Source: Nannocystis pusilla (GTDB taxonomy: Bacteria > Myxococcota_A > Polyangia > Nannocystales > Nannocystaceae). From it: DNA of 64,000 nt. The stretch lies in assembly GCF_026626665.1 (NCBI RefSeq), contig NZ_JAPNKE010000002.1, positions 3,565,168-3,629,167 on the forward strand, read 5' to 3'. The number at the start of each line of letters is the position of its first letter. The stretch's first letter is position 1. A program made the translations under genes and the position numbers. Below the pieces are notes generated by a model, which was not told where the DNA came from, did not search any database, and saw nothing but the letters and a program-made list of their open reading frames with translations. Shown piece by piece: positions 8,578 through 53,830 of the stretch.

Positions 8578-11500
8578 GCTCGCAGGCGCCGGCCCGCGCC
8601 TCCGCGACGTCGTCGGCCTCTCCGAGGTGGCGCCGGCGCTCCGCGGGCAGCAGGCACGCGCGCGTGGCGGCGGCGAGGCGCGCGCGCAGGCCCTCGCCGG
8701 GCCGCGGCCACACGACGACGCGGCCGTCGGCGCCGGCCGAGGCGAGGCGATCGCCGCCGGCGTCGTACGCGAGGGCGTTGACGCCGCCGCCGTGGCCCGC
8801 GAGCAGCTCGGGCCCGGCGTCGCCCTGCAGCGACCAGAAGAGGAGCGCGCCGTCGGCCGCGCCGGCGACGATCCAGCCGTCGCGCGGGTCCCAGGCCACG
8901 CTCGTCAGCGCCGCCGAGGCCCGCCCCAGCTCGGTGCGCACGCCGGTGGCGGCCGCCACGCGGACAAGCGCCCTGCCTCGCCGGCGACCGCGAGCGCGTC
9001 GCCGGCGGGGCTCCACGCCAGCGCGCGCAGCGGGTGGCCGAGCTCGATGAACACCGTCTGCTCGACGCGCACCAGCACGAAGCCGGAGGCGGTGACCGCC
9101 GCCAGCCGCTCGTCGACCGGCGACCAGGCCATGGCGGTGATGGCCCCGCGCCCCTGCGGCGCGCGGGACGGATCGAGCATGTCCTTGAAGTCATGTCCCG
9201 AAGGCCAGAGGAAGAACGCGCCCTCGCTGCCGCCCGCGGCCAGGCGATCGGCGCGAGGATCCCAGGCCAGGGCGGACACCGGGCGGCGGTCGAGGCTGAC
9301 GCGCCGCGTCGCCCCCTCGCCGCGGGGGATCCAGGTGACCGCGCCGCCGTCGTCGGCGATCGCCAGCTCCTGGCCGTCGCGCCGCCAGGCCAGCGCCAGC
9401 GCGGTGCCGGCGTGGTCGCGCCGGCGCACCGGGCCGTCGTCGGTCGGCAGCAGCCACACGCTGCGCGCGCCGGCGGCGGCCAGGGCGGTGCCGTCGGGGC
9501 TCCACGCGAGCGCGTGCACGGCCGCGCCGAGGTCATGCTCGCGCAAGGCGGCCGGCGCGAGCCGCCACACCCGCGCGCTGCCGTCGTCGCTGCCGGTGAT
9601 CAAGCGGACGCCCACGGGCGCGAACGCCAGCGCCCGCACCGGCCCGGTGTGACCGCGCAGCACGTAGGGGCGCGCGGTCCCGCCGATCCGCCACACCCGC
9701 GCGCTGCCGTCGTCGCTGCCGCTGGCGAACCATCCTGTCCCGAGAGCCAGGCCGGTGACGCCGCCGTCGCCGACCACCGCGGCGACCCGCCGCGGGGTGC
9801 CGTCGACCCGCCAGACCTCGACGCCGCCGTCGTCGCGGCCGATCGCCAGCTGGCGCCCGTTGCGGTCCCACGCCAACGCGCCCACCGCCGCGCCGCGAGC
9901 GACGACCAGGGTCGCGCGGCCCTCCGCGACCACCCAGACCTCGCCGCGCGGGCCGGCCGCGGCCACGCGCGCGCCGTCGGGGCTCCACGCGACCGCCGCG
10001 AGCGGACCCGCGACGCCGCGCAGCGGCGTGACCCGATCGACCGCGACCAGCGACACCCCGCCGCGCGCGTCGGTGCGGAGCTGCTCGCCGCCGGGTCCGC
10101 GCCGCGGATCGGACACGGAGCCGCCTGCCCCCGGCGTGGGCGGCCCGCCGGCCAGCGCGAAGCGGCGGACGTTGCCGGCGGCGTCGACCGTCTCGACCGC
10201 GCCGCGCAGATCTTCGGCGGCCGCGGCAGGCCGTGGGCTGTCCTGCGGGACAGGTGACGTGTCCTCAGGGACAGGCGCACCGGCGACCGGCACCGCCCCG
10301 CTCGCCAGCACGACCTCGCGCGGGCGCGCGTCCGACCTGTCCGCGAGGACAGGCGGATCGACAACCGCCGCGGAGCCGGCCCCGCTCGCCAGCACGACCT
10401 CGCGCAGGTGCGCGTCCGACCTGTCCGCGAGGACAGGCGCACCGGCGCCCGCCGGGAGCCCGCTCGTCAGCACGACCTCGCGCCGGCGCACGTCCGACCT
10501 GTCCGCGCGGCCAGACGCACCAGCGCCCGCCCCGCTCGCCAGCACGACCTCGCGCCGGTGCGCATCCGACCTGTCCTCACGGACAGCTCCCGTCCGCGCG
10601 TTCGACCTGTCCTTGCGGACAGCTCCCGTCCGCGCCTTTGACCTGTCCTCGCGGACAGCCCCCACCGCGCCCGGCACCGCGCTCCTGTCCCCCGGGACAG
10701 CCTCGACCCAGCGCACCGCCGTCACCGCGCCGTCGTGACCGCGCAGGATCGCCTGGCTGATCGGCTCGGCCAGCACGCGCTGAGCCAGCGCGCCCGGCTC
10801 GTCGAGCTCGCGCAGCAGCAGCGCCGCGGCGGTCGGGTCGCGCGGCAGCAGCGAGAACGCGGCGTCGCGGACCCGCAGCGCGTGGGCCTGGCGCTCCGCG
10901 GCCGCGCGCTCGACCGCCAGCTCGCCGGCCTGCGCGTCGGCGGGGGCGCTCTCGGGCGCGGTCGCCTGCGGGGCCGCGGCCGCGCCCGCGCCCGCCTCGG
11001 GCTGCGCCAGCGACACCCCGAGCGCGACCAGGCCCGCCGCGGTGGCCGCCGCGCCGCCGGCGATCAGCCACGTCCGCACGGGCACCGGCTCGGGGTTCTC
11101 GGCGAAGCGCCGCCGCGGCTGCAGGGCCGCGAGCAGCTCCTCCATCGTCGCCCAGCGCTCGGCTGGCTTTTCGGACAGGCCGCGGACGATCGCGCGGCGG
11201 ACGCGCAACGGCACGCGACTTTCGCGCGGAATGGGCGCGATCTCGACCTGTCCGAAGCGCGGAAGCGAGCCGAACGGCCGCAGACCGAACAAACCTTCGA
11301 ACAGCGCCACGCAAAAGCTGAATTGGTCGGAGCGCGGCTCCGCGTTGCCGGTGCGCTGCTGCTCGGGCGCCATGTAGGCGGGCGTGCCGAGGATGCTGCC
11401 GGTGCGCGTCAGCGGCATCAGCTCGTCGTCGAGGGCCTCGCCGAAATCGAGGGCGCAGGTGAGTCCGAAGTCGAGGACGCGCGCGCGGTCGCGGCTGTCG

Positions 11501-37485: not shown

Positions 37486-38807
37486 ATGACGTTCTCCCTG
37501 ACAGACACAGTTCGCGACGCCTTGACCTCCGGCGGCATCGTCAACGGCGCCGCGTCCGCCCTCGGGATCTCGAGCGCCTCGGCGTCGAAGGGCCTGGCCG
37601 CCGCGGGCTCGGCCATGCTCGCCGGTCTGGCCAACAAAGCCCGCGATCCGCTGGCGCTCGGCGAATTCTTCAACATGGCCCAGGATCCGGCGCTCACGAG
37701 CTCGGCGCTCGACGATCCGGCGCGCCTGCTCAGCGGCGCCGCCGAGGCCACCCGCGCGCGCGACCTCGGCACCCGCTTGACCTCGAGTCTGTTCGGCGGT
37801 CGCACCGACGACGTCGTCGGCGGCCTGGCCCGCCACGCCGGCATCGGCAGCACCGCGGCCGCCTCGTTGATGAGCATGGCGGCGCCGCTGGTCCTGCGGG
37901 CGGTCGGCGGCCTGGTGCGCGGCGGCGGCCTGACGGTCGGCTCGCTCGGGCAGGCGCTGCTCGGCAACCAGAGCGAGATCATGAACGCGGTGCCGCCGTC
38001 GCTGGCGGGCACGATCGGCCGCGCGCAGATCTACGACGTCGTCCGCGAGGCCCAGCCGCAAGTGCCTCACCTGCCGCACCCCGCGGCCGTCGAGCCCCGG
38101 CGGCCGGCCTGGTGGGCCATCCCGCTGGCCCTGTTGCCGCTGGCGCTGCTCGCCTGGTGGTTCCTCGACGCCCGCCGGACCGAGCGCCAGGCCGACACCA
38201 CCGCCTCGCGCTACGAGACCCCGGCGGCCGTCGCCACGCGCACGCCTCCCTCTGCTCCGCCGCCCGCGAGCAAGCGCGCGACCCCCCGACCCCACAGGCC
38301 ACGCCGACCCCACAGGCCGCGCCGGCGCCGAAGGCCCAGCCCGAGCTCAGGCCCGTCCACGTCGCCGAGGTCAACCGCGAGCTGCGGTTCGCCGAGAACG
38401 GCGTCGAGGCCAAGCTGCTCGCCTTCCTGCGCGACAAGGGCGCCAAGTACGACGACAAGACCTGGTTCGAGTTCGACCGCCTGGTGTTCGACACCAACGC
38501 GCAGACGCTGGCCGCCGGCTCGCACGAGCAGCTCGAGAACCTGGCCGCGATCCTCAAGGCCTATCCCAACGTGCACATCAAGATCGGCGGCTACACCGAC
38601 AACACCGGCGACCCGAACGCCAACCTCAAGCTGTCGCAGGAGCGCGCCGACAACGTGAAGAAGGAGCTGGTCGCGCGCGGCGTCCCCGGCGATCGCATCG
38701 AGACCGAGGGCTACGGCGAGCAGCACCCCGTCGCCGCCAACACCACCGAGGAGGGCCGCGCCCAGAACCGCCGGATCGCCCTCCGCGTGCTCCCGCCGAA
38801 GTCTTGA
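37486..38807 (+). CDS. OmpA-family protein (N-terminal DUF937-like region + OmpA C-terminal domain), apparent frameshift near 38270
   Basis: C-terminal OmpA_C signature (GYTDNTGDPNANLKLSQERADNVKKELV…NRRIAL) in the frame of ORF 37356..38807. The N-terminal 270 aa are in the frame of ORF 37486..38658. Confidence 0.65.
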
Positions 38808-38928
38808 GTCGCGCGCGAGCGCTGCGTCCCCCACGAGCCGGGCGCCCGCGTCGGTCCCCGGCTTTTCCTGCGCGCGAGGCTCGTCGTACGAGCGCCCGCG
38901 CGTCGACCGAGCTCGTATCGACGCCTCG

Positions 38929-41739: not shown

Positions 41740-42810
41740 TCACATCGGCCGTGGGCGGCACACCAGCAGCGTGTGGCTGACCCCGAGGTCGTCGTACTCG
41801 CGCTCGATCTCGAGGCCGGCCGCGTGGACGCACGCGAGGAACGTCGTCGAGCGGTACATCTGGCTGGTGCCGTTGGCGACCGCCGTGAAGTACAGCGACG
41901 TCATCTGCAGGCAGAAGCTGGCGGCCTCGAAGCGCTGGCGGTCCCAGAACGCCTCGAGGATGTAGATCTTGCAATTCGGCCCGGCCGCGGCGACGCAGCG
42001 GCGCAGGATCGACACGATCTCGGCCTCGGAGAAGCAGTCGAGGAACTGGCTCATCCAGATCGCGTCGAAGTCGGTCGGGACCGGCGAGCGCTCGTCGAGC
42101 AGGTCGGCCTCGTGGAAGCGCGCCCGCGCCAGCAGCCCCGCCTCGCGCAGGTTCTGCTCGGCGTTGCGGAGCTGCCCCGGCAGGTCCATCAGCGTCACCT
42201 CGACGTCGGGGTCGTGCCGCATGCACGCCGCCGCCCACTTGCCCGTGTTGCCGCCGATGTCGAGCAGCCGCTTCGGCTTGCCCGCGAACACCAGCGGCAG
42301 CGCCGCGCCGAACGCCCCGTCGGAATAGTAGTGGTCGAACTGGAACCACGACTTTCGCACCGACTCCGGCAATTGCGACAGCCCGGCGTAGACCGTCGGC
42401 CACTCGCCGAACACCTTGAGCCCCTCCGGCTTGCCCGACGCCACCGCCGCGTCGAGCCCCGCGATGCCGTGGTAGTTCACGTCGCGCACGAAGTCGAAGT
42501 TGGCGCGCGTCATCGGATCGTGCTGCACGTACACGCCGGTCTTGGTGATGCGATAGCGGCCATCGACCTCGGTCACGAGCCCGATCCCGAGCCCCGCCTC
42601 GAGCACCACGCGCGTGCCGTAGATCGGCAGCTCCGCCGCCGCCGCGACCTCCTCGAGGGTGAGGCCCTCGCGGCTGCGCTCGATGGCGAGGAGGATCCCG
42701 CGGTCGCGCAGCACGCGGGTGGCCTGGAACACGAACGGGGCGAACGCGATCCACTGCGCACGCTCCAGCGCCTCGAGCGCGGTGATGGGCTTGGGAACGT
42801 TTACGGACAT
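41740..42810 (-). CDS. Class I SAM-dependent O-methyltransferase (dimerisation domain + Methyltransf_2)
   Basis: About 356 aa from MSVNVPKPI…. SAM motif LLDIGGNTGKWAAA. Acidic-loop MDLPG. Typical plant/bacterial OMT C-terminus. Confidence 0.75.
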   Translation of the reverse strand: MSVNVPKPITALEALERAQWIAFAPFVFQATRVLRDRGILLAIERSREGLTLEEVAAAAELPIYGTRVVLEAGLGIGLVTEVDGRYRITKTGVYVQHDPMTRANFDFVRDVNYHGIAGLDAAVASGKPEGLKVFGEWPTVYAGLSQLPESVRKSWFQFDHYYSDGAFGAALPLVFAGKPKRLLDIGGNTGKWAAACMRHDPDVEVTLMDLPGQLRNAEQNLREAGLLARARFHEADLLDERSPVPTDFDAIWMSQFLDCFSEAEIVSILRRCVAAAGPNCKIYILEAFWDRQRFEAASFCLQMTSLYFTAVANGTSQMYRSTTFLACVHAAGLEIEREYDDLGVSHTLLVCRPRPM

Positions 42811-42830
42811 GCCGGGGGCCCGACTGTCGC

Positions 42831-43826
42831 TCACCACGGTCCCGCCGACGAGTGGCAGATGGCCCGGAGCGCGACGCGCGCCTTCGCCCGTCGCCCGGAG
42901 CCAGACCCGCGGCTACGGCCCCCCAGCCGCGCAGCGAGCCCGTCTCTCGCGCCCGCCGGCGGCCCGGACGCCCCCCTCCGCCCGACGCGACCCGGGCGAT
43001 CTCCCTCGCCTCCGCGCGGCTGTCGGATTTGAAACACCGCGTCGCGTTTCTCGACACTCGAGTCACGCGGCGACGCCCTGGTTCGACCTGCGGGAACGCG
43101 CCACCTCGAAGAAGTCGCAGCGTCCCGCACCCACCCTCGATCCCTCGTCGCACCGCTCACAGCGGCGAGCACCGGGAAACGAGCGGCATCAAGTCTCGGC
43201 GCTAGAACTCCGCTGGCGTGCCGCGTGCCCTGACCTTTTTCGAAAGTAATACGCGCGAACTGCCGCGTACTCGGAGATTCCCCTTCGGGAGATTCCAGAA
43301 GTGCAATTCGCCGGTGCAGTTCCTTCGTCGTCGGACTGCTCCGCTCGAACCACGCGCCCAGCGCATCCATGACCGCCCGTCGTGCCCTGACCAGACGAGC
43401 ATCATTGAGACCGAGCGTTTCCATGTCCTCGCCGGCTCGTGCATCGTCCGCGACGACCTCGCCCGACCCTGTGTATCGTAGGAAACGACGCGGATCCGGC
43501 CCCACGCCCCGGGCAGGATGGAGGAACAACGGAGTCTCCTGCTTGGCAACGTCACAGGTAATCCGGTCGGCGCAAGAACCGACGAGGTTGTTCCACTGGA
43601 ATACGCCACCTCCGCGCTCGCGCGGATGCCAGTGATCGATACGCATCTCGCTCTCGGTCGGCTGCACCCGTCGCTGACAGTAGGCGCAGAGCGACCCCTG
43701 ATCGCGCACGAGCGCATCTCGCATCGACTGCTTCTGATCGCCATGGACGCTGTCCCAATCGGCGCCAGGCGTCGTGGTGAGGGTCGTGAGACAGACAGGT
43801 GCAGGTCCTTTGGGCGCAGAGATCAT
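42831..43826 (-). CDS. HNH endonuclease (Septu PtuB-like); C-terminal extent uncertain
   Basis: From MISAPKGP…. HNH core CAYCQRRV…IDHWHPRERGG…WNNLVGSC. The start overlaps the ATPase stop (ATGA). The last about 150 aa of the ORF are GC-rich and low-complexity, so the real stop may be nearer 43200. The 5' part has lower GC. Confidence 0.55.
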   Translation of the reverse strand: MISAPKGPAPVCLTTLTTTPGADWDSVHGDQKQSMRDALVRDQGSLCAYCQRRVQPTESEMRIDHWHPRERGGGVFQWNNLVGSCADRITCDVAKQETPLFLHPARGVGPDPRRFLRYTGSGEVVADDARAGEDMETLGLNDARLVRARRAVMDALGAWFERSSPTTKELHRRIALLESPEGESPSTRQFARITFEKGQGTRHASGVLAPRLDAARFPVLAAVSGATRDRGWVRDAATSSRWRVPAGRTRASPRDSSVEKRDAVFQIRQPRGGEGDRPGRVGRRGASGPPAGARDGLAARLGGRSRGSGSGRRAKARVALRAICHSSAGPW

Positions 43827-45098
43827 ACGCCCCTCTCGAGATCGATCGCCGTCCTCGCGCGGACGATGTCCGGATCGTCCGGCCCGAGTTCTTGCTGCAA
43901 CTTCTGCCAAAGCACTTCAGCCTCGTCGAACGCGCCCCGATCGATCCGGTCGAAGAGCCGGCGAACCTCGTCTCGCGTCTCGACCGGCCGCTCCGGTACG
44001 CCGAACACATCTTCGAGCAGGCTGTTGGAGTCCCGTCCATGCGTGTGCTCGACCCTTCCGATGCGGCCGTCCGGGTGAAGCACGCGGATCCACTCTGGCT
44101 CGGCCGTGGACAACACTTGCGGCGAATGAGTCGTGGCGATGAACTGGATCCTGGGAACACGCGCCGCAGGTTCGGGAGCACGGATCGTTGCCAGCTCGGA
44201 TGCAGGTGGAGATCGAGCTCGTCGATGAGCACGACCCCGGACGTCTCTTTGGCCGCGTTCTCGCCGTGGTGGGGATTGAGCCGCGCCGCCCGCCATGCGA
44301 TGTCGCCAGCGAGGGCCAACAAGTTACGGTAACCGTCCGAGAGGACGCGGAAAGGCAGGGTGCGGCCATCCTTGAAGTCGACCCGCAGCTCTTCGTGATT
44401 GACGGAGTAATAAAAACGCTTCGCGCCCTCCACACAATCGACGATCGCATTCGCCACGACCTCGAGCAGCGGCTCCCGAACCGCAGCCACCGATAGGTTG
44501 GCTTCCACGGCGCGCGAAATTTCCTGCAAGCGCACGGACTCTCGCCAGGACATCCAGCTCTCGAGGAGTTGATACCCCACGGCCGCCTGGAGACAATGGC
44601 GATATCCGTCGAGAACGCTCAGAAGCTTCGTCGTTTCCCGACCTTCGTTTCCGCTCCACAGCCTGCCCGTCCGATAATATGCGATGAGCGGGAGCTCGAT
44701 CTGCTGGCCTCTCCCGGTCGAAGACACGGCCCGCCTCGCGGTGTCAAAGAGGGATCCTTGCGCCCATTCCGCACTATCGGGGGTCACGGCCTCCCGGTGC
44801 AGCCCCGCGCCCGGCCCCTCGATCTGGCCGCGAACGCGGGTCTGGCCCGCGACCTCGGGCTCGGCACGCCGTTGACGACCCGCCGGATCAAGCGCCGGTC
44901 ATCCGCTAAGAGTTTCCCATCGTGCCCGCGATTTTGCGTCGCCATCGTCCAGATCGCAAGCAACGCCGCGATCCCATCCAGCACACTGGTCTTGCCAGAT
45001 CCATTAATCCCCACGAACAGCGTGCACTCCGGGTGGAGCTCGCACTTGAGTGCCTCGAAGCCGCGGAAGTTCGTGAGCTCGATGTCGCGGATCTGCAC
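43823..45098 (-). CDS. AAA_21/AAA_15-type ABC-like ATPase (Septu PtuA-like), about 2 apparent frameshifts
   Basis: N-terminus VQIRDIELTNFRGFEAL…FVGINGSGKTSVLDGIA (Walker A) in ORF 44784..45221. Middle in ORF 43552..44787 (…VVLIDELDLHLHPSWQ, Walker B/D-loop). C-terminus in ORF 43823..44296 (…QFIATTHSPQVL H-loop). GC drops to about 50-60% here versus about 72% in the flanks. Confidence 0.55.
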
Positions 45099-45275
45099 GC
45101 CTCTTCCGTACCACGTCGGCCGCCATGCGGCCAGATACCGCGAGGGTCCCTGCACCCGTCGAGACGAGCATCCCGCCAGCGACGAGCTCGTCCTTGGGGC
45201 TCGGGCGTCGAATGCACTCATGTCTCATCCCGAGAGCCCGCCCGCTCCGCGCGGGCGGCGACTCGTTCCGCCCCG

Positions 45276-46496
45276 TCACACCGGCGGCGCGCAGTGCCTT
45301 ACGATCTGCGCCACCGCCTGCGCGCGCGGCAGCACCTGCTGCTCCTCGCGGATCCGCAGCGTCAGCGCCTCGCTGCTCGCCTCGCGCGCTCCGATCACCG
45401 CCAGCATCGGCACTCCTTGCGCGTGCGCCTCCGCCACGCGGCGGGCCAGCGTCTCGCGGCGGTCGTCGAGCTCGGCCCGGATCCCCGCCGCGCGCAGCTC
45501 GGCCACTGCCGTCTCTGCCGCCGCTTGCTGGGCCGGGGCCACCGGCGCCACCACCACTTGCACGGGCGCCAGCCAGGCCGGCAGCGCGCCCGCGTGGTGC
45601 TCGAGCACGATCGCCAGGAAGCGCTCGAGGCTGCCGTAGATCGCCCGGTGCAGCATCGCCGGGCGGCGGCGCTGACCGGCCTCGTCGATGTAATGCAGCC
45701 CGAAGCGCTCCGGCAGGTTGAAGTCGAGCTGGATCGTCCCGCACTGCCACGAGCGGCCGAGGCGGTCGCGCAGCGAGAACTCGAGCTTCGGCCCGTAGAA
45801 CGCCCCCTCGCCCGGCTGCACCACGCAATCGAGCCCCGCCTCGCGGGCCGCCGCAGCCAGCTCCGCCTCCGCGCGGTCCCACAGCGCATCGTCGCCGACC
45901 CGCTCCGGCGGGCGCGTCGACAGCCCGACCGCGAAGTCATCGAACCCGAAGCCCGCGTAGAACCTGCGGGCGCCCTGGCAGAAGCGCACGATCTCGGCCG
46001 CGATCTGGTCGGGAGCGCAGAACACGTGGCCGTCGTCCTGCGTGAACTGGCGCAGGCGGAACAGCCCGTGCAGCGTCCCGCTCGGCTCGTCGCGGTGGCA
46101 CAGGCCGAACTCGCACAGGCGCAGCGGCAGGTCGCGGTACGACAGCGCGCTGCGCTGGGCGATCTGGATGTGACCCGGGCAGCTCACCGGCTTCAGCGCC
46201 GCGCAGCAGCCCTCGTCGGCGACTGCGAACATTCCCTGACGGAAATGCTGCCAGTGGCCGCTCTTCTCCCAGATCGGCTGTCGCAGCAATTGCGGCGTGC
46301 GGACCTCGTGATAGCCGTCGGCGCTGGCGCGGCGGCGGGCCGCGTCTTCCAGCGCGCGGGCGAGGACCAGGCCGCGGGGGTGCCAGAACACCATCGCCGG
46401 CGCCTCTTCCTGCAAGTGGAACAGGCCGAGGCGCGGGCCGAGGGCGCGGTGGTCGTGGGCGTCGAGGACGGAATGGGGGCTGATGTCGTGGCTCAT
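45276..46496 (-). CDS. Truncated threonyl-tRNA synthetase paralog (catalytic + anticodon-binding domains only; no TGS/editing N-domains)
   Basis: 406 aa from MSHDISPH…. Class II motifs 2 (FRLRQFTQDDGHVFC) and 3 (GTIQLDFNLPERFGL…AMLHRAIYGSLERF). ThrRS zinc ligands (C…H…H). The protein begins right at the catalytic core. Confidence 0.8.
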   Translation of the reverse strand: MSHDISPHSVLDAHDHRALGPRLGLFHLQEEAPAMVFWHPRGLVLARALEDAARRRASADGYHEVRTPQLLRQPIWEKSGHWQHFRQGMFAVADEGCCAALKPVSCPGHIQIAQRSALSYRDLPLRLCEFGLCHRDEPSGTLHGLFRLRQFTQDDGHVFCAPDQIAAEIVRFCQGARRFYAGFGFDDFAVGLSTRPPERVGDDALWDRAEAELAAAAREAGLDCVVQPGEGAFYGPKLEFSLRDRLGRSWQCGTIQLDFNLPERFGLHYIDEAGQRRRPAMLHRAIYGSLERFLAIVLEHHAGALPAWLAPVQVVVAPVAPAQQAAAETAVAELRAAGIRAELDDRRETLARRVAEAHAQGVPMLAVIGAREASSEALTLRIREEQQVLPRAQAVAQIVRHCAPPV

Positions 46497-46814
46497 GGCG
46501 GCGGTCTCCGGGGGTGAAAGGACCGGCCGGACGGAGCGACGCCACCATGCGCGCAAAAGCCCCGCCGGCTCGGGCGGGGCTTCGCAGGGCGTGTGTCTCG
46601 GGCTCTCAGCGCACGCGCACGCGACCGACCCCACCCGGAAGGGTGGTGGTGGTAGTCGCGGTGGTGGCGCGCCGGAGCATCGATTTGGGGATACACGCGG
46701 CCTCTGGAGCGGTCAAGGCGAGCGCTCGTGCGGAAGCTCGTGGGCCCGTCCATCCCACACCTGCGATTGCGATCACCTCCTTTCGCGTGTCGCCGATCAC
46801 CGCGTCGCCCGCGA

Positions 46815-47320
46815 CGACATGTCCCTTCGGACATATTATAATGGGGCCGACCCCGGCGCGCCGCCTGGCGCCCGCGCCGAACCTGTCCCTTCAGCCAGCC
46901 ACCGCTTACCCGGCGAACCTCGTCATGCCGCAGCCGGCCGGGCCGAGCCCAGGCTGTTCGCCGCCGCGTCCCCGCCTCGGCACCCGCGCTCGCTGCCCGC
47001 GCGCGGCCGTCGCCCGCCTCCCGAGCTCGGCCCGTTCGCCGGCGCGTCCCCGCCTCGGCACCCGCGCTCCATGCCCGCTCGCCTCACCCGGCTCGCCGCC
47101 GCAGCCGCCGCGACATGTCTCTTCGGCCAGCCTCGATCGCCCCGCCGGCGATCGCCCTCGCCGACCTCCGCCGCGCACCCCGCCGCTGCAGACCGCCCCG
47201 GACATGTCCCTTCGGTCAGCTCGCCCTCCCCTCGGGCCGCGGCGAGCACGCCGTTCCGGCGGCCACCGGCGCCCGCGCGGGGCAGCGCCGGGTCCTGCCC
47301 GACCTGTCTCTTCGACCAGC
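46815..47320. repeat. Intergenic repeat array (GACATGTCCCTTCGG units) plus internal about 80 bp direct repeat
   Basis: cgacatgtcccttcggacat…gaacctgtcccttcagcc…cgacatgtctcttcggcc…ggacatgtcccttcggtc…cgacctgtctcttcgacc. Direct repeat gcgtccccgcctcggcacccgcgctc at about 46967 and about 47047. Confidence 0.8.
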
Positions 47321-47404
47321 CTGGCACGGAGCGCGAGCGATCGCGCGCCCCGCCTGCGTGCGGGCCCGCTTCCGGCCGTGGCCGCGCTGTCGTATCACTC
47401 CGCC

Positions 47405-48737
47405 ATGCCCACAACAGGCTCCGCGTCGGCGCCTCGCCGCGCGATCGTGATCGGCGCCGGGATCGCCGGCCTCCTCGCCGCCCGCGTGCTCACGCGTCAC
47501 TTCGAGCGCGTCACTCTCCTCGATCGCGACAGCTTGCCGGCCGGGCCCGAGCCGCGCGCCGGCGCGCCGCAGAGCCACCACGTCCACGTCCTGTTGACGC
47601 GCGGCTGGAAGATCTTGAGCGAGCAGTTCCCCGGCCTCGGCGACGCCCTCGCGGCCGCGGGCGCCCACGAGATCGACTGGCTCGACGACGTCGCCTGGCA
47701 CACCCCCTTCGGTCAGGCCCCGCGGGTCCCTCGCCGCTGCGCTCGCGCGCCTGCACCCGCGGCCTGCTCGAGTACCAGGTGCGCACCGCCCTCGTCGCCG
47801 ACGAGCGCGTGCGCATCCACTCCGGCCTCGAGGTCACCGGCTTGCAGGCGGCCGGCGAGCGGATCGTCGGCGTCCAGGTCCACCGCCGCGCCGGCGCCCC
47901 CGAGCTCGCGGCCGACGAGCTGCGCGCCGACCTCGTCGTCGACGCCGGCGGGCGCGCCTCCAAGGCCCCGACCTGGCTGGCCGCGCTCGGCTACCCCGAG
48001 CCGCCCGAGACCATCATCGACGCCCAGCTCGGCTACGCCACCCGCCTCTACGAGCTGCGCGCCCGGCCTGACTGGAAGGTCCTCTACGCCATGGGCAAGC
48101 CGGGCAAGAACCCGCGCGGCGGCGTCGTCTACCCGGTCGAGGGCGGGCGTCACATCGTCACCCTGGTCGGCTACGGCGGCGTGTTCCCGCCGGTCGACGA
48201 GGCCGGCTTCCTCGAGTTCGCCGGCGCGCTCGAGACCCCGCTCTGCGCGAAGTCCTGGTCGACGCCACGCCGTGCTCCGCCATCCACGGCTATCGCAGGA
48301 CCGAGAACCGCCTGCGCCACTACGAGCGCCTGCGCCGCTGGCCCGACGGCTTCGTCGTCCTCGGCGACGCCGCCTGCGCCCTCAACCCCGTCTACGGCCA
48401 GGGCATGAGCGTCGCCGCCGTCGCCGCCACGGTCCTCGACGACGCCCTGCGCGCGCGCCCGCACGAGCCGCTCGGCCTGCGCTTCCAGAAGCGCCTCGCC
48501 GCCGGCAACCTCGCCGCCTTCATGACCGCCAGCAGCGACGACCTGCGCTGGCCGGGCACCACCGGCAAGGTCTCGCCCGGCCTCAAGCTCATGCACCGCT
48601 TCGTCGACCGGATCTTCGCCGCCGCCACCCGCTCGCCCGAGCTCTACCTGCGCCTGATCGAGGTCCTGCACCTGATGCGCCCGAGCCGCGACCTGTTCCA
48701 CCCGAGCGTGCTGCGCCGGGCCCTGCTGGCGCGCTGA
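47405..48737 (+). CDS. FAD-dependent monooxygenase/oxidoreductase (3 apparent frameshifts)
   Basis: N-terminus MPTTGSASAPRRAIVIGAGIAGLLAA (GxGxxG). Middle …DLVVDAGGRASK…. C-terminus …GFVVLGDAACALNPVYGQGMS… spread over three frames. One join is at a C4/C5 run near 48235. Confidence 0.5.
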
Positions 48738-50072: not shown

Positions 50073-50374
50073 GATCTCCGCCCGCGCCGGGCCGACCCGC
50101 GCGGACGAACCCGCCCGTCATCGCCCGAGAAGGCCGCGACGGAACGGCGTTGCTCGTCGACCCCGCGACAGTTCAAAAACCAGGACCGCGCGGCGCGAGC
50201 GACACCTCGAGAGGCAACCTCCGGACGCAGAGCGCTGGACTTCTCGACTCGCGCGCCCGCCGGGTGCCCGACGCTCCCGCGCGGCACGACGGGCCCACGT
50301 CGCCCCGCTCACCGCATGGGCCGCTCGAACTCGAGCGGCCCCGGGTAGCCGTCGCTCAGGTCGCACCGAGAGAC

Positions 50375-52767: not shown

Positions 52768-53830
52768 TCACCAGCGGATCCGCACCAGCCCGTCGCCCTC
52801 GCGCACCGCCGGCAGCCCGCTGCCGTCCGGGTCGGCGCCCAGGCGCGACGACCCGCCGCCCCCGCCCGCCGCGTGGGCCGAGCCGCCCCCGAACCAGCCG
52901 CCTCCGCCGCCCGCCACGTGGTAGACCCCGCCGCCTCCGCCCTCGCCGAACCCGCCCGCCTCGCCGGGCGTCGAGCCCACGGCCCCGCCGTGGCTCTGCG
53001 TCCCGCCGCCGGCCGCGTGCCACTCGGGCAGCAGCGCCACCCCGGGCCCGCCGATCGCAAGCCCGCCCGGGCCGCCTGCGCCGTGGTCCGGGCAGCCGCA
53101 CTGCCCGCCCCCGCCGCCGGCCGCGACGAAGATCCGGTCCTCCAGCGTCCCGCCGCCCTGGCGCACGTCGCTGGCTCCCCCCGCCGCCCGCGAACGCGCC
53201 GCCCAGGCCACCACCATTGAAGCCCGCCGCGCCCTCGAGCCCGCCGCGCCCGCCGACGCGGATCTGCAGCGCCTCGCCGGGCTCCACCTCGAGCTCCGCC
53301 CGCACGTAGGCGCCGAGCCCTCCGTCGGCCTGCTCGAGCCCGTCGCAGCAGCGCGAGCCGCCGCCCTGCGCGCCCCACAGCTCGACGGTGAGCCGCGACA
53401 CGCACTCGGGCACCACGAACGTCTCCGGCGCCCCGGTGAATTCGAACTCGCGCGCGCTCCCGTCGGGCGTCACGCGCGTGCGGTCGACGCAGCGACCGTC
53501 GCAGCGGAGCTGGCCCGGCCCGCACTGCGCCTCGCAGTAGCCCGCCGCGCACGTGCCCGCGCACACGCGCCCGCAGCCGCCGCAGTGACGCGCGTCGCTC
53601 GCGACGTCGACGCACTCGGCCTCGCACACGTCGAGCGCCTCCGCCTCGCACTCGAGCGCCAGCGCGTCGTCGGCCTCGACCCCTGCACCGGCGACCGTGC
53701 TCGGCACCGGTCGCAGGTGGCGAGTATCCGTGATCTCGTCGCAGCCGCCGGACACGATTGCGAGCATCACCGACACCGTACGCCACCGACCCTCGAGAAC
53801 CATCTGCGCGGCCTCCCCTGCGACCTGTAG
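52768..53830 (-). CDS. Secreted Cys-rich / glycine-rich-domain protein, paralog 1 (frameshifted)
   Basis: Fragments in ORFs 51098..53854 (…CGPGQLRCDGRCVD…FEFTGAPETFVVPECV.RLTVELWGAQGG…) and 52768..53217 (GGGG…YHVAGGGGGWFGGG…VRIRW). Confidence 0.45.

What the first reader, a model, noticed from the sequence alone, without database searches (positions are those of the whole stretch)
42831..45098. Septu-like two-gene defence module (ABC-type ATPase + HNH nuclease) in a low-GC island
The window contains a minus-strand pair: an ATPase followed by an HNH nuclease. The ATPase carries Walker A (GINGSGKT), a D-loop (LIDELDLHLHP) and an H-loop (IATTHSP). The HNH nuclease carries CxxC…IDHWHP…WNNL. The two overlap by ATGA. 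This matches the PtuA/PtuB (Septu) architecture of anti-phage systems. GC falls to about 50-60% here versus about 72% in the flanks, which is the signature of a horizontally acquired defence islet. It is wedged between a ThrRS paralog and an O-methyltransferase that run in the same direction. The C-terminal third of the HNH ORF looks like a non-coding GC-rich read-through.
Basis: partly seen in the sequence, partly recalled or inferred. Interest (0 to 1): 0.6.

Follow-up and report, generated by a model that had tools for sequence, protein, structure and literature searches.

The report
Ordinary Septu (PtuA–PtuB) defence islet
This is a standard two-gene Septu anti-phage module (PtuA ATPase plus PtuB HNH nuclease) in a strain-variable slot of a Nannocystis genome; as written, both genes are broken by four single-base gaps that are most likely assembly errors, so the finding is correct but ordinary.

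Summary
Window 43202-45098 (minus strand) encodes PtuA and PtuB of the standalone Septu system. After frame correction they match PADLOC Septu models end to end (E=1e-115 and 3e-37). PtuA matches solved Septu PtuA 8EE4 full length (E=1e-57). PtuB passes TIGR02646.

The pair lies in a ~2.2 kb lower-GC islet (64.8% vs 73.3%) directly after a truncated thrS-like gene. A conspecific strain (97-98% identical flanks) and four other Nannocystis species lack it. N. bainbridge has an intact, much more divergent allele in the same slot (dS about 1.0-1.35 vs 0.15 for the adjacent OMT).

PtuA is spread over three frames. PtuB loses its stop (true TAG at 43204-43202) through two more 1-bp gaps, which creates the 'GC-rich read-through'.

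Conserved native genes in the window carry the same kind of damage: single-base gaps, homopolymer contractions where the conspecific strain allows a check. They are intact in relatives, so the breaks are most likely assembly errors (about 70%) rather than real decay (about 30%).

No retron RT or ncRNA, mobile-element scars or new features were found. This is a new member of a known kind, of low interest.

The parts
45096..45098 (-). PtuA start codon (GTG)
   Evidence: tblastn of intact homologues P0001-P0004 starts here. The codon was read directly.
44858..45098 (-). PtuA segment 1 (residues 1-80), containing Walker A GINGSGKT at 45011-44988
   Evidence: Frame -3 HSP against intact homologues. 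PADLOC PtuA profile positions 2-75.
44856..44859 (-). Frame break 1: one base missing (GAGCC.CGAG, compatible with C4->C3)
   Evidence: tblastn frame switch -3 to -2. Single 1-bp gap against the intact N. bainbridge allele.
44153..44857 (-). PtuA segment 2 (residues ~81-315): ABC signature LSDGYRN 44343-44323 and Walker B/D-loop VVLIDELDLHLHP 44235-44197
   Evidence: Frame -2 HSP at 59-66% identity to intact homologues P0001-P0004. PADLOC profile positions 121-317. Motif coordinates.
44150..44155 (-). Frame break 2: one base missing (TTCCC.AGGATC, compatible with C4->C3; restores F-P-R-I-Q-F-I-A-T-T-H-S-P)
43823..44152 (-). PtuA segment 3 (residues ~316-425): H-loop IATTHSP 44140-44120, stop TGA 43825-43823
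   Evidence: Frame -1 HSP at 75% identity to P0001. PADLOC profile positions 317-429.
43273..43826 (-). PtuB segment 1 (residues 1-185): ATG 43826-43824 overlapping the PtuA stop (ATGA), CAYC 43688-43677, IDHWHP 43640-43623, WNNL 43595-43584, second Cys pair 43580-43551
   Evidence: tblastn of the intact PtuB of L001, L002 and L003. PADLOC PtuB. Motifs.
43270..43274 (-). Frame break 3: one base missing (TCTCC.GAGTAC)
   Evidence: 1-bp gap against L008. The C-terminus EYAAVRAYYFRK continues in the next frame, matching the L001 and L008 PtuB.
43229..43237 (-). Frame break 4: one base missing (CGAAAAAGGTC.AGGG; either A6->A5 or a lost base in the TCN Ser codon)
   Evidence: 1-bp gap against L008. 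...RARGTPAEF* continues in the third frame.
43202..43231 (-). PtuB C-terminal segment and true stop codon TAG (43204-43202)
   Evidence: The corrected PtuB is 208 aa, matching the 208-215 aa intact relatives.
45099..45268 (-). Islet-specific 5' non-coding region upstream of PtuA (presumed promoter region)
   Evidence: Homology with the conspecific strain L050 ends a few bases after the ThrRS stop codon. No sigma-70-like site was found on this strand.
43086..43201 (-). Islet-specific 3' non-coding region downstream of PtuB
   Evidence: Homology with L050 and with L005, L006, L007 and L009 resumes at about 43058-43085.
42838..43085 (-). Conserved non-coding leader of the O-methyltransferase.
   Evidence: Conserved in six Nannocystis genomes. 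No Rfam match. No covariation support for an RNA fold.
45276..46634 (-). Upstream anchor: N-terminally truncated ThrRS-like gene, conserved in all relatives
   Evidence: TIGR00418 at 453 bits, profile positions 170-549 of 565. Pfam tRNA-synt_2b plus HGTP_anticodon. Syntenic in L005-L009 and L050.
41740..42837 (-). Downstream anchor: O-methyltransferase, conserved in all relatives
   Evidence: Pfam Methyltransf_2 plus a dimerisation domain. 90-99% protein identity in Nannocystis relatives. An identical protein is encoded in GCA_049337375.1.

Best explanation
WHAT IT IS. Window ~43086-45268 is a ~2.2 kb strain-specific islet in a Nannocystis chromosome. It carries one canonical standalone (retron-independent) Septu operon: ptuA (ABC-type ATPase, 425 aa once the frame is corrected) and ptuB (TIGR02646 HNH nuclease, 208 aa), translationally coupled through an ATGA overlap.

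HOW IT GOT THERE. It occupies a hypervariable slot directly after a thrS-like gene. It was most likely acquired or exchanged by recombination between the conserved flanks. This step is inferred.

THE FOUR GAPS. The four single-base gaps that break both genes in this sequence are most likely homopolymer under-calls of the assembly. The organism therefore probably makes intact PtuA and PtuB.

HOW IT WORKS (inferred by homology, not shown here). PtuA oligomerises and holds PtuB in an inactive complex. Phage infection activates the HNH nuclease; the reported triggers are a tail-fibre protein and a fall in ATP. Depending on the homologue, the nuclease nicks or degrades DNA, and/or host tRNA-Tyr is cleaved in its variable loop. 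Phage replication stops, in an abortive-infection-like manner.
For: IDENTITY
- PADLOC PtuA PDLC00278 covers residues 1-423 against profile 1-429/436, E=1e-115. PtuB PDLC00322 covers 1-200 against 1-212/215, E=3e-37 (per fragment).
- The solved Septu PtuA 8EE4 aligns over 1-421 against 1-456, E=1e-57.
- PtuB scores 63.7 bits on TIGR02646, above the 52.15 cut-off, and matches PtuB structures with CxxC, D-H and N-N aligned.
- Intact homologues of 424-440 aa cover 100% of the corrected PtuA at up to 66% identity. Each has a 209-215 aa PtuB directly downstream.

ISLET
- Absent from the same ThrRS-OMT slot in the conspecific GCA_049337375.1, whose flanks are 97-98% identical. Also absent in RBIL2, N. 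exedens, N. punicea and N. radixulma.
- Present and intact in N. bainbridge.
- GC is 64.8% against 73.3%, and GC3 is 0.68-0.79 against 0.96.
- dS between the two PtuAB alleles is 1.05-1.35, against 0.15 for the adjacent OMT in the same genome pair. dN/dS is 0.18 for PtuA and 0.09 for PtuB.

ARTEFACT READING
- Against the N. bainbridge allele, the only indels in 1.9 kb of coding sequence are four 1-bp gaps in the window. There are no in-frame stops after correction.
- The same kind of lesion breaks conserved native genes that are single ORFs in 2-5 relatives: the monooxygenase (twice), DUF937-OmpA, the 33.3-34.6 kb gene, the 34.9-37.3 kb gene and the 52.7-53.8 kb genes.
- Against the conspecific strain these are homopolymer contractions (G5->G4, G4->G3, G6->G5, T6->T5), with a strong bias towards 'window lacks 1 bp'.

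MECHANISM (literature)
- PMC12819146: Septu PtuAB hexamer, tail-fibre sensing, ATP, DNA nicking.
- PMC13096335: a Septu system cleaves the tRNA-Tyr variable loop, and Walker A/B and H-N-H residues are essential.
Against: - The density of breaks in the module (4 in 1.9 kb) is higher than in native sequence. Expected counts are 0.66 from the five-species comparison (Poisson P=0.005), 0.38 for two HMM-visible breaks (P=0.056), and about 1.4 from my own count against the conspecific strain (P about 0.05).
- The immediate neighbours (OMT, ThrRS-like gene, two M16 peptidases; about 4.9 kb) carry no frame break.
- No second assembly of a strain carrying this allele exists to check the four sites.
- The module's homopolymers are short (2-5 nt).
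- No activity, trigger or target has been tested in any myxobacterial Septu.
Confidence: 0.7

Rival explanations
1. The four frameshifts are real. The Septu operon is a very recently inactivated pseudogene pair, a defence islet caught decaying in a slot that other strains have already emptied or replaced.
For: Break density in the module exceeds the native background (P=0.005 to about 0.05, depending on the comparator). The five genes' worth of immediate neighbours are clean. The slot turns over quickly, and the conspecific strain has no PtuAB at all. Defence genes are commonly lost.
Against: The assembly demonstrably carries the same kind of 1-bp gap (homopolymer contractions where checked against the conspecific strain) in many conserved native genes that are intact in a 97-98% identical strain, so such gaps are not evidence of biology here. 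After the four bases are restored there are no stops and no other indels, every catalytic motif is intact, and dN/dS is 0.09-0.18. Native breaks also occur in clusters, e.g. three within ~520 bp at 52.7-53.2 kb and three candidate phase switches within ~720 bp at 23.8-24.6 kb.
Confidence: 0.27
2. The pair is the effector module of a type I-A retron (Ec78/Eco7-like) and not a standalone Septu.
For: The PADLOC retron I-A ATPase and HNH models and the NCBIfam retron-Ec78 PtuA/PtuB models also hit. Retron PtuAB structures appear among the PDB matches.
Against: Those hits are weaker and cover only the C-terminal half of PtuA. NCBIfam scores fall far below the equivalog cut-offs (228 against 500, and 87.8 against 150). 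At 425 aa, PtuA lacks the extra ~100 residues of the ~550-aa retron type (PMC12819146). The islet holds only two genes, and both flanks are conserved in genomes without it. Rfam finds no msr or other RNA in the window.
Confidence: 0.02
3. It is a housekeeping SMC/RecF/Rad50-like ATPase with an associated nuclease, not a defence system.
For: There are weak N-terminal P-loop matches to RecF and Rad50 models.
Against: These matches cover about 50 residues around Walker A only and fall far below the cut-offs. Full-length matches are to PtuA. The pair is absent from the same locus in a conspecific strain and in four other species. A relative sits inside a BREX cluster.
Confidence: 0.01

Closest known systems
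Standalone Septu PtuA/PtuB (E. coli; structures 8EE4/8EE7/8EEA/8SUX; Li et al. 2024, cited in PMC13096335 and PMC12819146)
   Same: Two-gene operon, ABC ATPase then HNH nuclease. PtuA aligns full length (1-421 against 1-456, E=1e-57) with Walker A, signature, Walker B and H-loop. PtuB is a TIGR02646 HNH with CxxC, D-H and N-N. No RT or ncRNA. Similar sizes (425 and 208 aa here).
   Different: Sequence is far diverged: the best database relative of PtuA is only 66% identical, and the match to the solved E. coli PtuA is remote (E=1e-57). The host is a high-GC myxobacterium. PtuA is about 40 residues shorter than the 465-aa E. coli protein. As written in this window both genes are frameshifted. 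Trigger and target are untested.
Retron type I-A (Ec78 / Retron-Eco7) PtuAB effectors (e.g. 9KJX, 9NNB, 9VH1)
   Same: Homologous ATPase C-terminal half and HNH nuclease, with the same gene order.
   Different: Retron PtuA is about 550 aa, with an N-terminal extension, helical flap and m-loop for RT, ncRNA and msDNA binding (PMC12819146). This PtuA lacks them, and no RT or msr/msd is present. NCBIfam equivalog cut-offs are not met.
Other OLD-family/ABC-ATPase defence pairs (PARIS AriA/AriB, Gabija GajA)
   Same: The ABC ATPase core is related (AriA E=2e-6 in PDB; PADLOC AriA and GajA hits at the P-loop). The general logic is an ATPase scaffold controlling a nuclease.
   Different: Here the nuclease partner is HNH, not TOPRIM. 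The matches are partial and orders of magnitude weaker than those to PtuA.

Membership tests
Septu (standalone PtuA+PtuB) | PtuA: ABC-type ATPase with Walker A, ABC signature, Walker B/D-loop and H-loop, matching Septu PtuA models over the full length | tested here: met
   GINGSGKT (residue 30), LSDGYRN (253), VVLIDELD (289) and TTHSP (323). PADLOC PDLC00278 1-423 against 1-429/436, E=1e-115. PDB 8EE4 full length, E=1e-57. This holds only after joining three reading frames.
Septu (standalone PtuA+PtuB) | PtuB: TIGR02646-type HNH nuclease with catalytic His and Asn and Cys pairs | tested here: met
   TIGR02646 at 63.7 bits, above the 52.15 cut-off. PADLOC PDLC00322, E=3e-37. C47/C50, D64-H65, N79-N80 and C85/C91 align to solved PtuB chains.
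Septu (standalone PtuA+PtuB) | The two genes are adjacent, on the same strand, ptuA first | tested here: met
   ATGA overlap at 43826-43823. The same arrangement occurs in L001, L002, L003 and L008.
Septu (standalone PtuA+PtuB) | No associated reverse transcriptase or ncRNA (separates it from retron I-A) | tested here: met
   The islet holds two genes only. The flanks are conserved in genomes lacking it. There are no Rfam hits.
Septu (standalone PtuA+PtuB) | Both genes are uninterrupted, so the system can be functional | tested here: inconclusive
   In this sequence there are four 1-bp gaps. The assembly shows the same kind of gap in conserved native genes, so the state in the organism cannot be decided without reads.
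Septu (standalone PtuA+PtuB) | Protects against phage; dependent on ATPase and HNH residues | not testable with these tools
   Shown for E. coli homologues only (PMC13096335: K43/D316 of PtuA and H75/N91 of PtuB are essential).
Retron type I-A (Ec78/Eco7) | RT gene and msr/msd ncRNA next to PtuAB | tested here: not met
   There is no room in the 2.2 kb islet. The neighbours are the ThrRS-like gene and the OMT, which are conserved without the islet. Rfam finds nothing.
Retron type I-A (Ec78/Eco7) | Retron-type PtuA (~550 aa with N-terminal extension) and PtuB reaching the NCBIfam equivalog cut-offs | tested here: not met
   NF041760 at 228 bits against a 500 cut-off, C-terminal half only. NF041761 at 87.8 bits against 150. 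Retron PtuA structures align only from query residue ~181-235 onward.

The most novel reading that the evidence does not exclude
The slot just after the thrS-like gene may be a mobile-element-free 'cassette exchange' hotspot in Nannocystis. There, deeply diverged Septu alleles (dS above 1, against 0.15 for the flanks) and unrelated fillers are swapped by flank recombination, even within a species. On this reading, this strain's copy is caught in real, very recent decay: four independent frameshifts before any other damage.
Probability: 0.2. Interest if true: 0.3.

Novelty: new member of a known kind. Interest (0 to 1): 0.15.

Why it matters
It adds one more Septu locus, this time in a myxobacterium, and gives a clean example of a defence islet that is polymorphic within a species and sits in a recombination-type variable slot with no integrase or repeats.

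The practical lesson is larger than the biological one. This window's assembly carries frequent single-base deletions that break genes (homopolymer contractions wherever the conspecific strain allows a check). Any 'pseudogene', 'read-through' or 'split gene' seen in this window must be checked against relatives before it is interpreted.

Tried and rejected
1. **Systematic error at a sequence or methylation motif.** CGAGG/CCTCG occurs at 5 of 14 deletion sites (uncorrected P=0.015 among ~100 k-mers). GACCTCG occurs at 3 of 14 sites, but only 3 of its 39 occurrences are affected. This is not convincing and was dropped.
2. **Retron association.** No Rfam msr at gathering threshold over the whole window, and none at E<=1 over 42700-45400. 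Rejected.
3. **Riboswitch or structured leader in the 'read-through' (42838-43085).** No Rfam hit. RNAalifold gave a covariation term of +4.3, which is a penalty. No support.
4. **Transposon or integrase-type insertion.** No meaningful direct or inverted repeats at the edges. The conspecific 'empty' site holds an unrelated 239-bp filler, not a clean empty site.
5. **Promoter and terminator scan.** One promoter-like site, on the wrong strand, and one weak terminator-like hairpin inside the PtuB coding sequence. Uninformative.
6. **Pfam on individual frame segments, to prove native frameshifts.** Too insensitive. Replaced by tblastn of the relatives' ORFs and by DNA comparison.
7. **PtuAB remnants in the relatives' slots.** None at E<1e-5.
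8. **The RBIL2 slot ORF (142 aa).** No Pfam or PADLOC match.
Full report
**1. What is in the sequence**

On the minus strand between 45098 and 43202 there are the remains of two genes. Mechanical ORF listing and three-frame translation show that the ATPase is not one ORF.
- The Walker A block (GINGSGKT, 45011-44988) lies in ORF 44784-45221.
- The signature and Walker B/D-loop (LSDGYRN, VVLIDELDLHLHP) lie in ORF 43552-44787.
- The H-loop (IATTHSP) lies in ORF 43823-44296.

These are three different frames. The GC3 phase plot switches frame at the same places. The HNH ORF starts at ATG 43826, overlapping the ATPase stop as ATGA, and runs on to 42831.

**2. Family**

Fragment by fragment, PADLOC gives PtuA for the three ATPase pieces, at consecutive profile positions 2-75, 121-317 and 317-429 of PDLC00278. 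It gives PtuB for the HNH piece, but only profile positions 1-185 of 215.

A frame-joined PtuA finds 2737 homologues. The best are intact 424-440 aa proteins at 58-66% identity and 100% coverage.

After correction the matches are as follows.
- PtuA matches PDLC00278 end to end (E=1e-115), and PtuB matches PDLC00322 over 1-212/215 (E=3e-37).
- PtuA aligns full length with the solved standalone Septu PtuA 8EE4 (E=1e-57). It aligns with the ~550-aa retron PtuAs only over its C-terminal half.
- PtuB passes the TIGR02646 cut-off. Both proteins fall well below the NCBIfam retron-Ec78 equivalog cut-offs.
- The CxxC, D-H and N-N motifs align with solved PtuB chains.

**3. The frame breaks**

tblastn of intact homologues places PtuA on frames -3, -2 and -1, with junctions at 44859/44856 and 44155/44152.

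The intact PtuB of metagenomic relatives (209-215 aa, directly downstream of their PtuA) aligns to 43826-43272. Their C-termini then continue in the other two frames.

A global DNA alignment with the intact N. bainbridge allele shows exactly four 1-bp gaps in the window within the coding region, with the next bases at 44857, 44152, 43272 and 43231. There are no other indels there. With four bases restored, PtuA is 425 aa and PtuB is 208 aa, ending at TAG 43204-43202, with no internal stops.

**4. Are the breaks real?**

A GC-phase HMM over the whole window flags about a dozen same-strand frame switches that are not gene junctions.

Comparison with five Nannocystis species shows window-specific 1-bp deletions in native genes. 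tblastn of the relatives' single ORFs confirms that several native genes are split across frames in the window:
- the flavin monooxygenase (two breaks);
- DUF937-OmpA;
- the 33.3-34.6 kb gene;
- the 34.9-37.3 kb gene;
- the 52.7-53.8 kb genes.

The decisive comparator is GCA_049337375.1. It was found because it encodes an identical OMT, and its flanks are 97-98% identical to the window. In that assembly the monooxygenase (444 aa) and DUF937-OmpA (443 aa) are intact. The window differs from it by homopolymer contractions: G5->G4 at 48239, G4->G3 at 47730, G6->G5 at 38832 and T6->T5 at 50179. There is a strong bias towards 'window lacks 1 bp'.

All four PtuAB sites are compatible with the same error type. 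About 6 of ~14 conserved genes broken in 22 kb is not plausible biology for a free-living myxobacterium. Residual long-read indel error is the economical explanation.

Against this, the module's break density is higher than background.
- Five-species comparison: P=0.005.
- HMM-visible breaks: P=0.056.
- Conspecific strain: about 0.05, from my own count of 9 clean 'window lacks 1 bp' events in about 12.5 kb.

The nearest neighbours are also clean. However, native breaks are themselves clustered. I put about 70% on artefact and about 30% on at least one real lesion.

**5. Context and origin**

The organism is a Nannocystis: OMT protein identity is 99% to RBIL2, 97% to N. exedens, 95% to N. punicea, 94% to N. 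bainbridge and 90% to N. radixulma.

Synteny from the ThrRS-like gene to the OMT is conserved, but the sequence between them is not:
- 626 bp in RBIL2, with an orphan 142-aa ORF;
- 315 bp in N. exedens;
- 994 bp in N. punicea, with an 85-bp tandem repeat of 3.9 copies;
- 204 bp in N. radixulma;
- 239 bp in the conspecific strain.

All these fillers are mutually non-homologous. Only N. bainbridge has PtuAB there, and its copy is intact.

Homology with the conspecific strain ends just after the ThrRS stop (~45268) and resumes at ~43085. No flanking repeats were found.

The islet is 64.8% GC against 73.3% elsewhere, and GC3 is 0.68-0.79 against 0.96 for the OMT.

Between the window and N. bainbridge, PtuA and PtuB have dS of 1.05 and 1.35 and dN/dS of 0.18 and 0.09. 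The adjacent OMT has dS of 0.15. The two alleles are therefore much older than the species split. They have been under purifying selection, and they were not inherited vertically together with the flanks. One relative's PtuAB sits inside a BREX cluster, which is a typical defence-island context.

**6. Mechanism (inferred by homology)**

In E. coli, the standalone Septu PtuAB forms a hexameric, inflammasome-like assembly. It is reported to sense a phage tail-fibre protein and falling ATP, and to nick DNA (PMC12819146 and references therein). [quoted passage not shown] The corresponding residues are present here: K36, D293/E294, H65 and N79/N80. Nothing about trigger or target was tested here.

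**7. Verdict**

This is a new member of a well-known family in an ordinary kind of context. The main added value is the correction that both genes are frameshifted in this sequence, probably through assembly error, together with the evidence that this is a within-species variable, recombination-type slot. Interest is low.

Noticed in passing
window-wide; e.g. 47727-47730, 48239, 38244-38343, ~33695, ~34952, ~53181-53234, 52663/52761; candidates at 8975, 13707, 23837, 24244, 24560, 57103: The assembly carries frequent single-base deletions that split conserved native genes across frames; where the conspecific strain covers the site they are homopolymer contractions. The flavin monooxygenase, DUF937-OmpA and others are intact in a 97-98% identical strain and in other Nannocystis species. 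The candidates outside 31-54 kb rest only on the GC-phase HMM and on reading the translations.
   Followed up: partly
window 45276-46634 (-): The 'ThrRS paralog' is an N-terminally truncated threonyl-tRNA synthetase. It matches TIGR00418 above the cut-off but only over profile positions 170-549 of 565, and is called as 406 aa in GCA_049337375.1. It is conserved at this locus in all the Nannocystis relatives, next to an O-methyltransferase and a flavin monooxygenase. It could be a resistance or accessory copy. I did not check whether a full-length thrS exists elsewhere.
   Followed up: no
window 42838-43085 (-): About 250 bp of non-coding DNA upstream of the O-methyltransferase is strongly conserved across six Nannocystis genomes. 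It has no Rfam match and no covariation support for an RNA structure. Its function is unknown; it may be a promoter or leader.
   Followed up: partly
L007 9163-9496; L005 9171-9599: In other species the same slot holds an 85-bp tandem repeat of 3.9 copies (N. punicea) or an orphan 142-aa ORF with no Pfam or PADLOC match (RBIL2). The slot is variable in general and not specifically a defence slot.
   Followed up: partly
L002 1-17317: A 50%-identical PtuAB pair sits inside a BREX-like cluster (BrxC/PglY, methyltransferase, PLD-like, then PtuA and PtuB, then PglZ and BrxL). One defence system is nested within another.
   Followed up: no
proteins P0046, P0047, P0055: Some PtuA homologues are 611-654 aa and cover 97-99% of the PtuA query. 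The extra ~200 residues could be a fused PtuB.
   Followed up: no
window 46510-47442: About 0.9 kb between the ThrRS-like gene and the monooxygenase reaches ~80% GC in its 3' part (about 46.85-47.3 kb) and is classed as non-coding by the GC-phase HMM. It shows several indels against the conspecific strain, and ORF translations there contain repeated PRHPRS-like strings.
   Followed up: no
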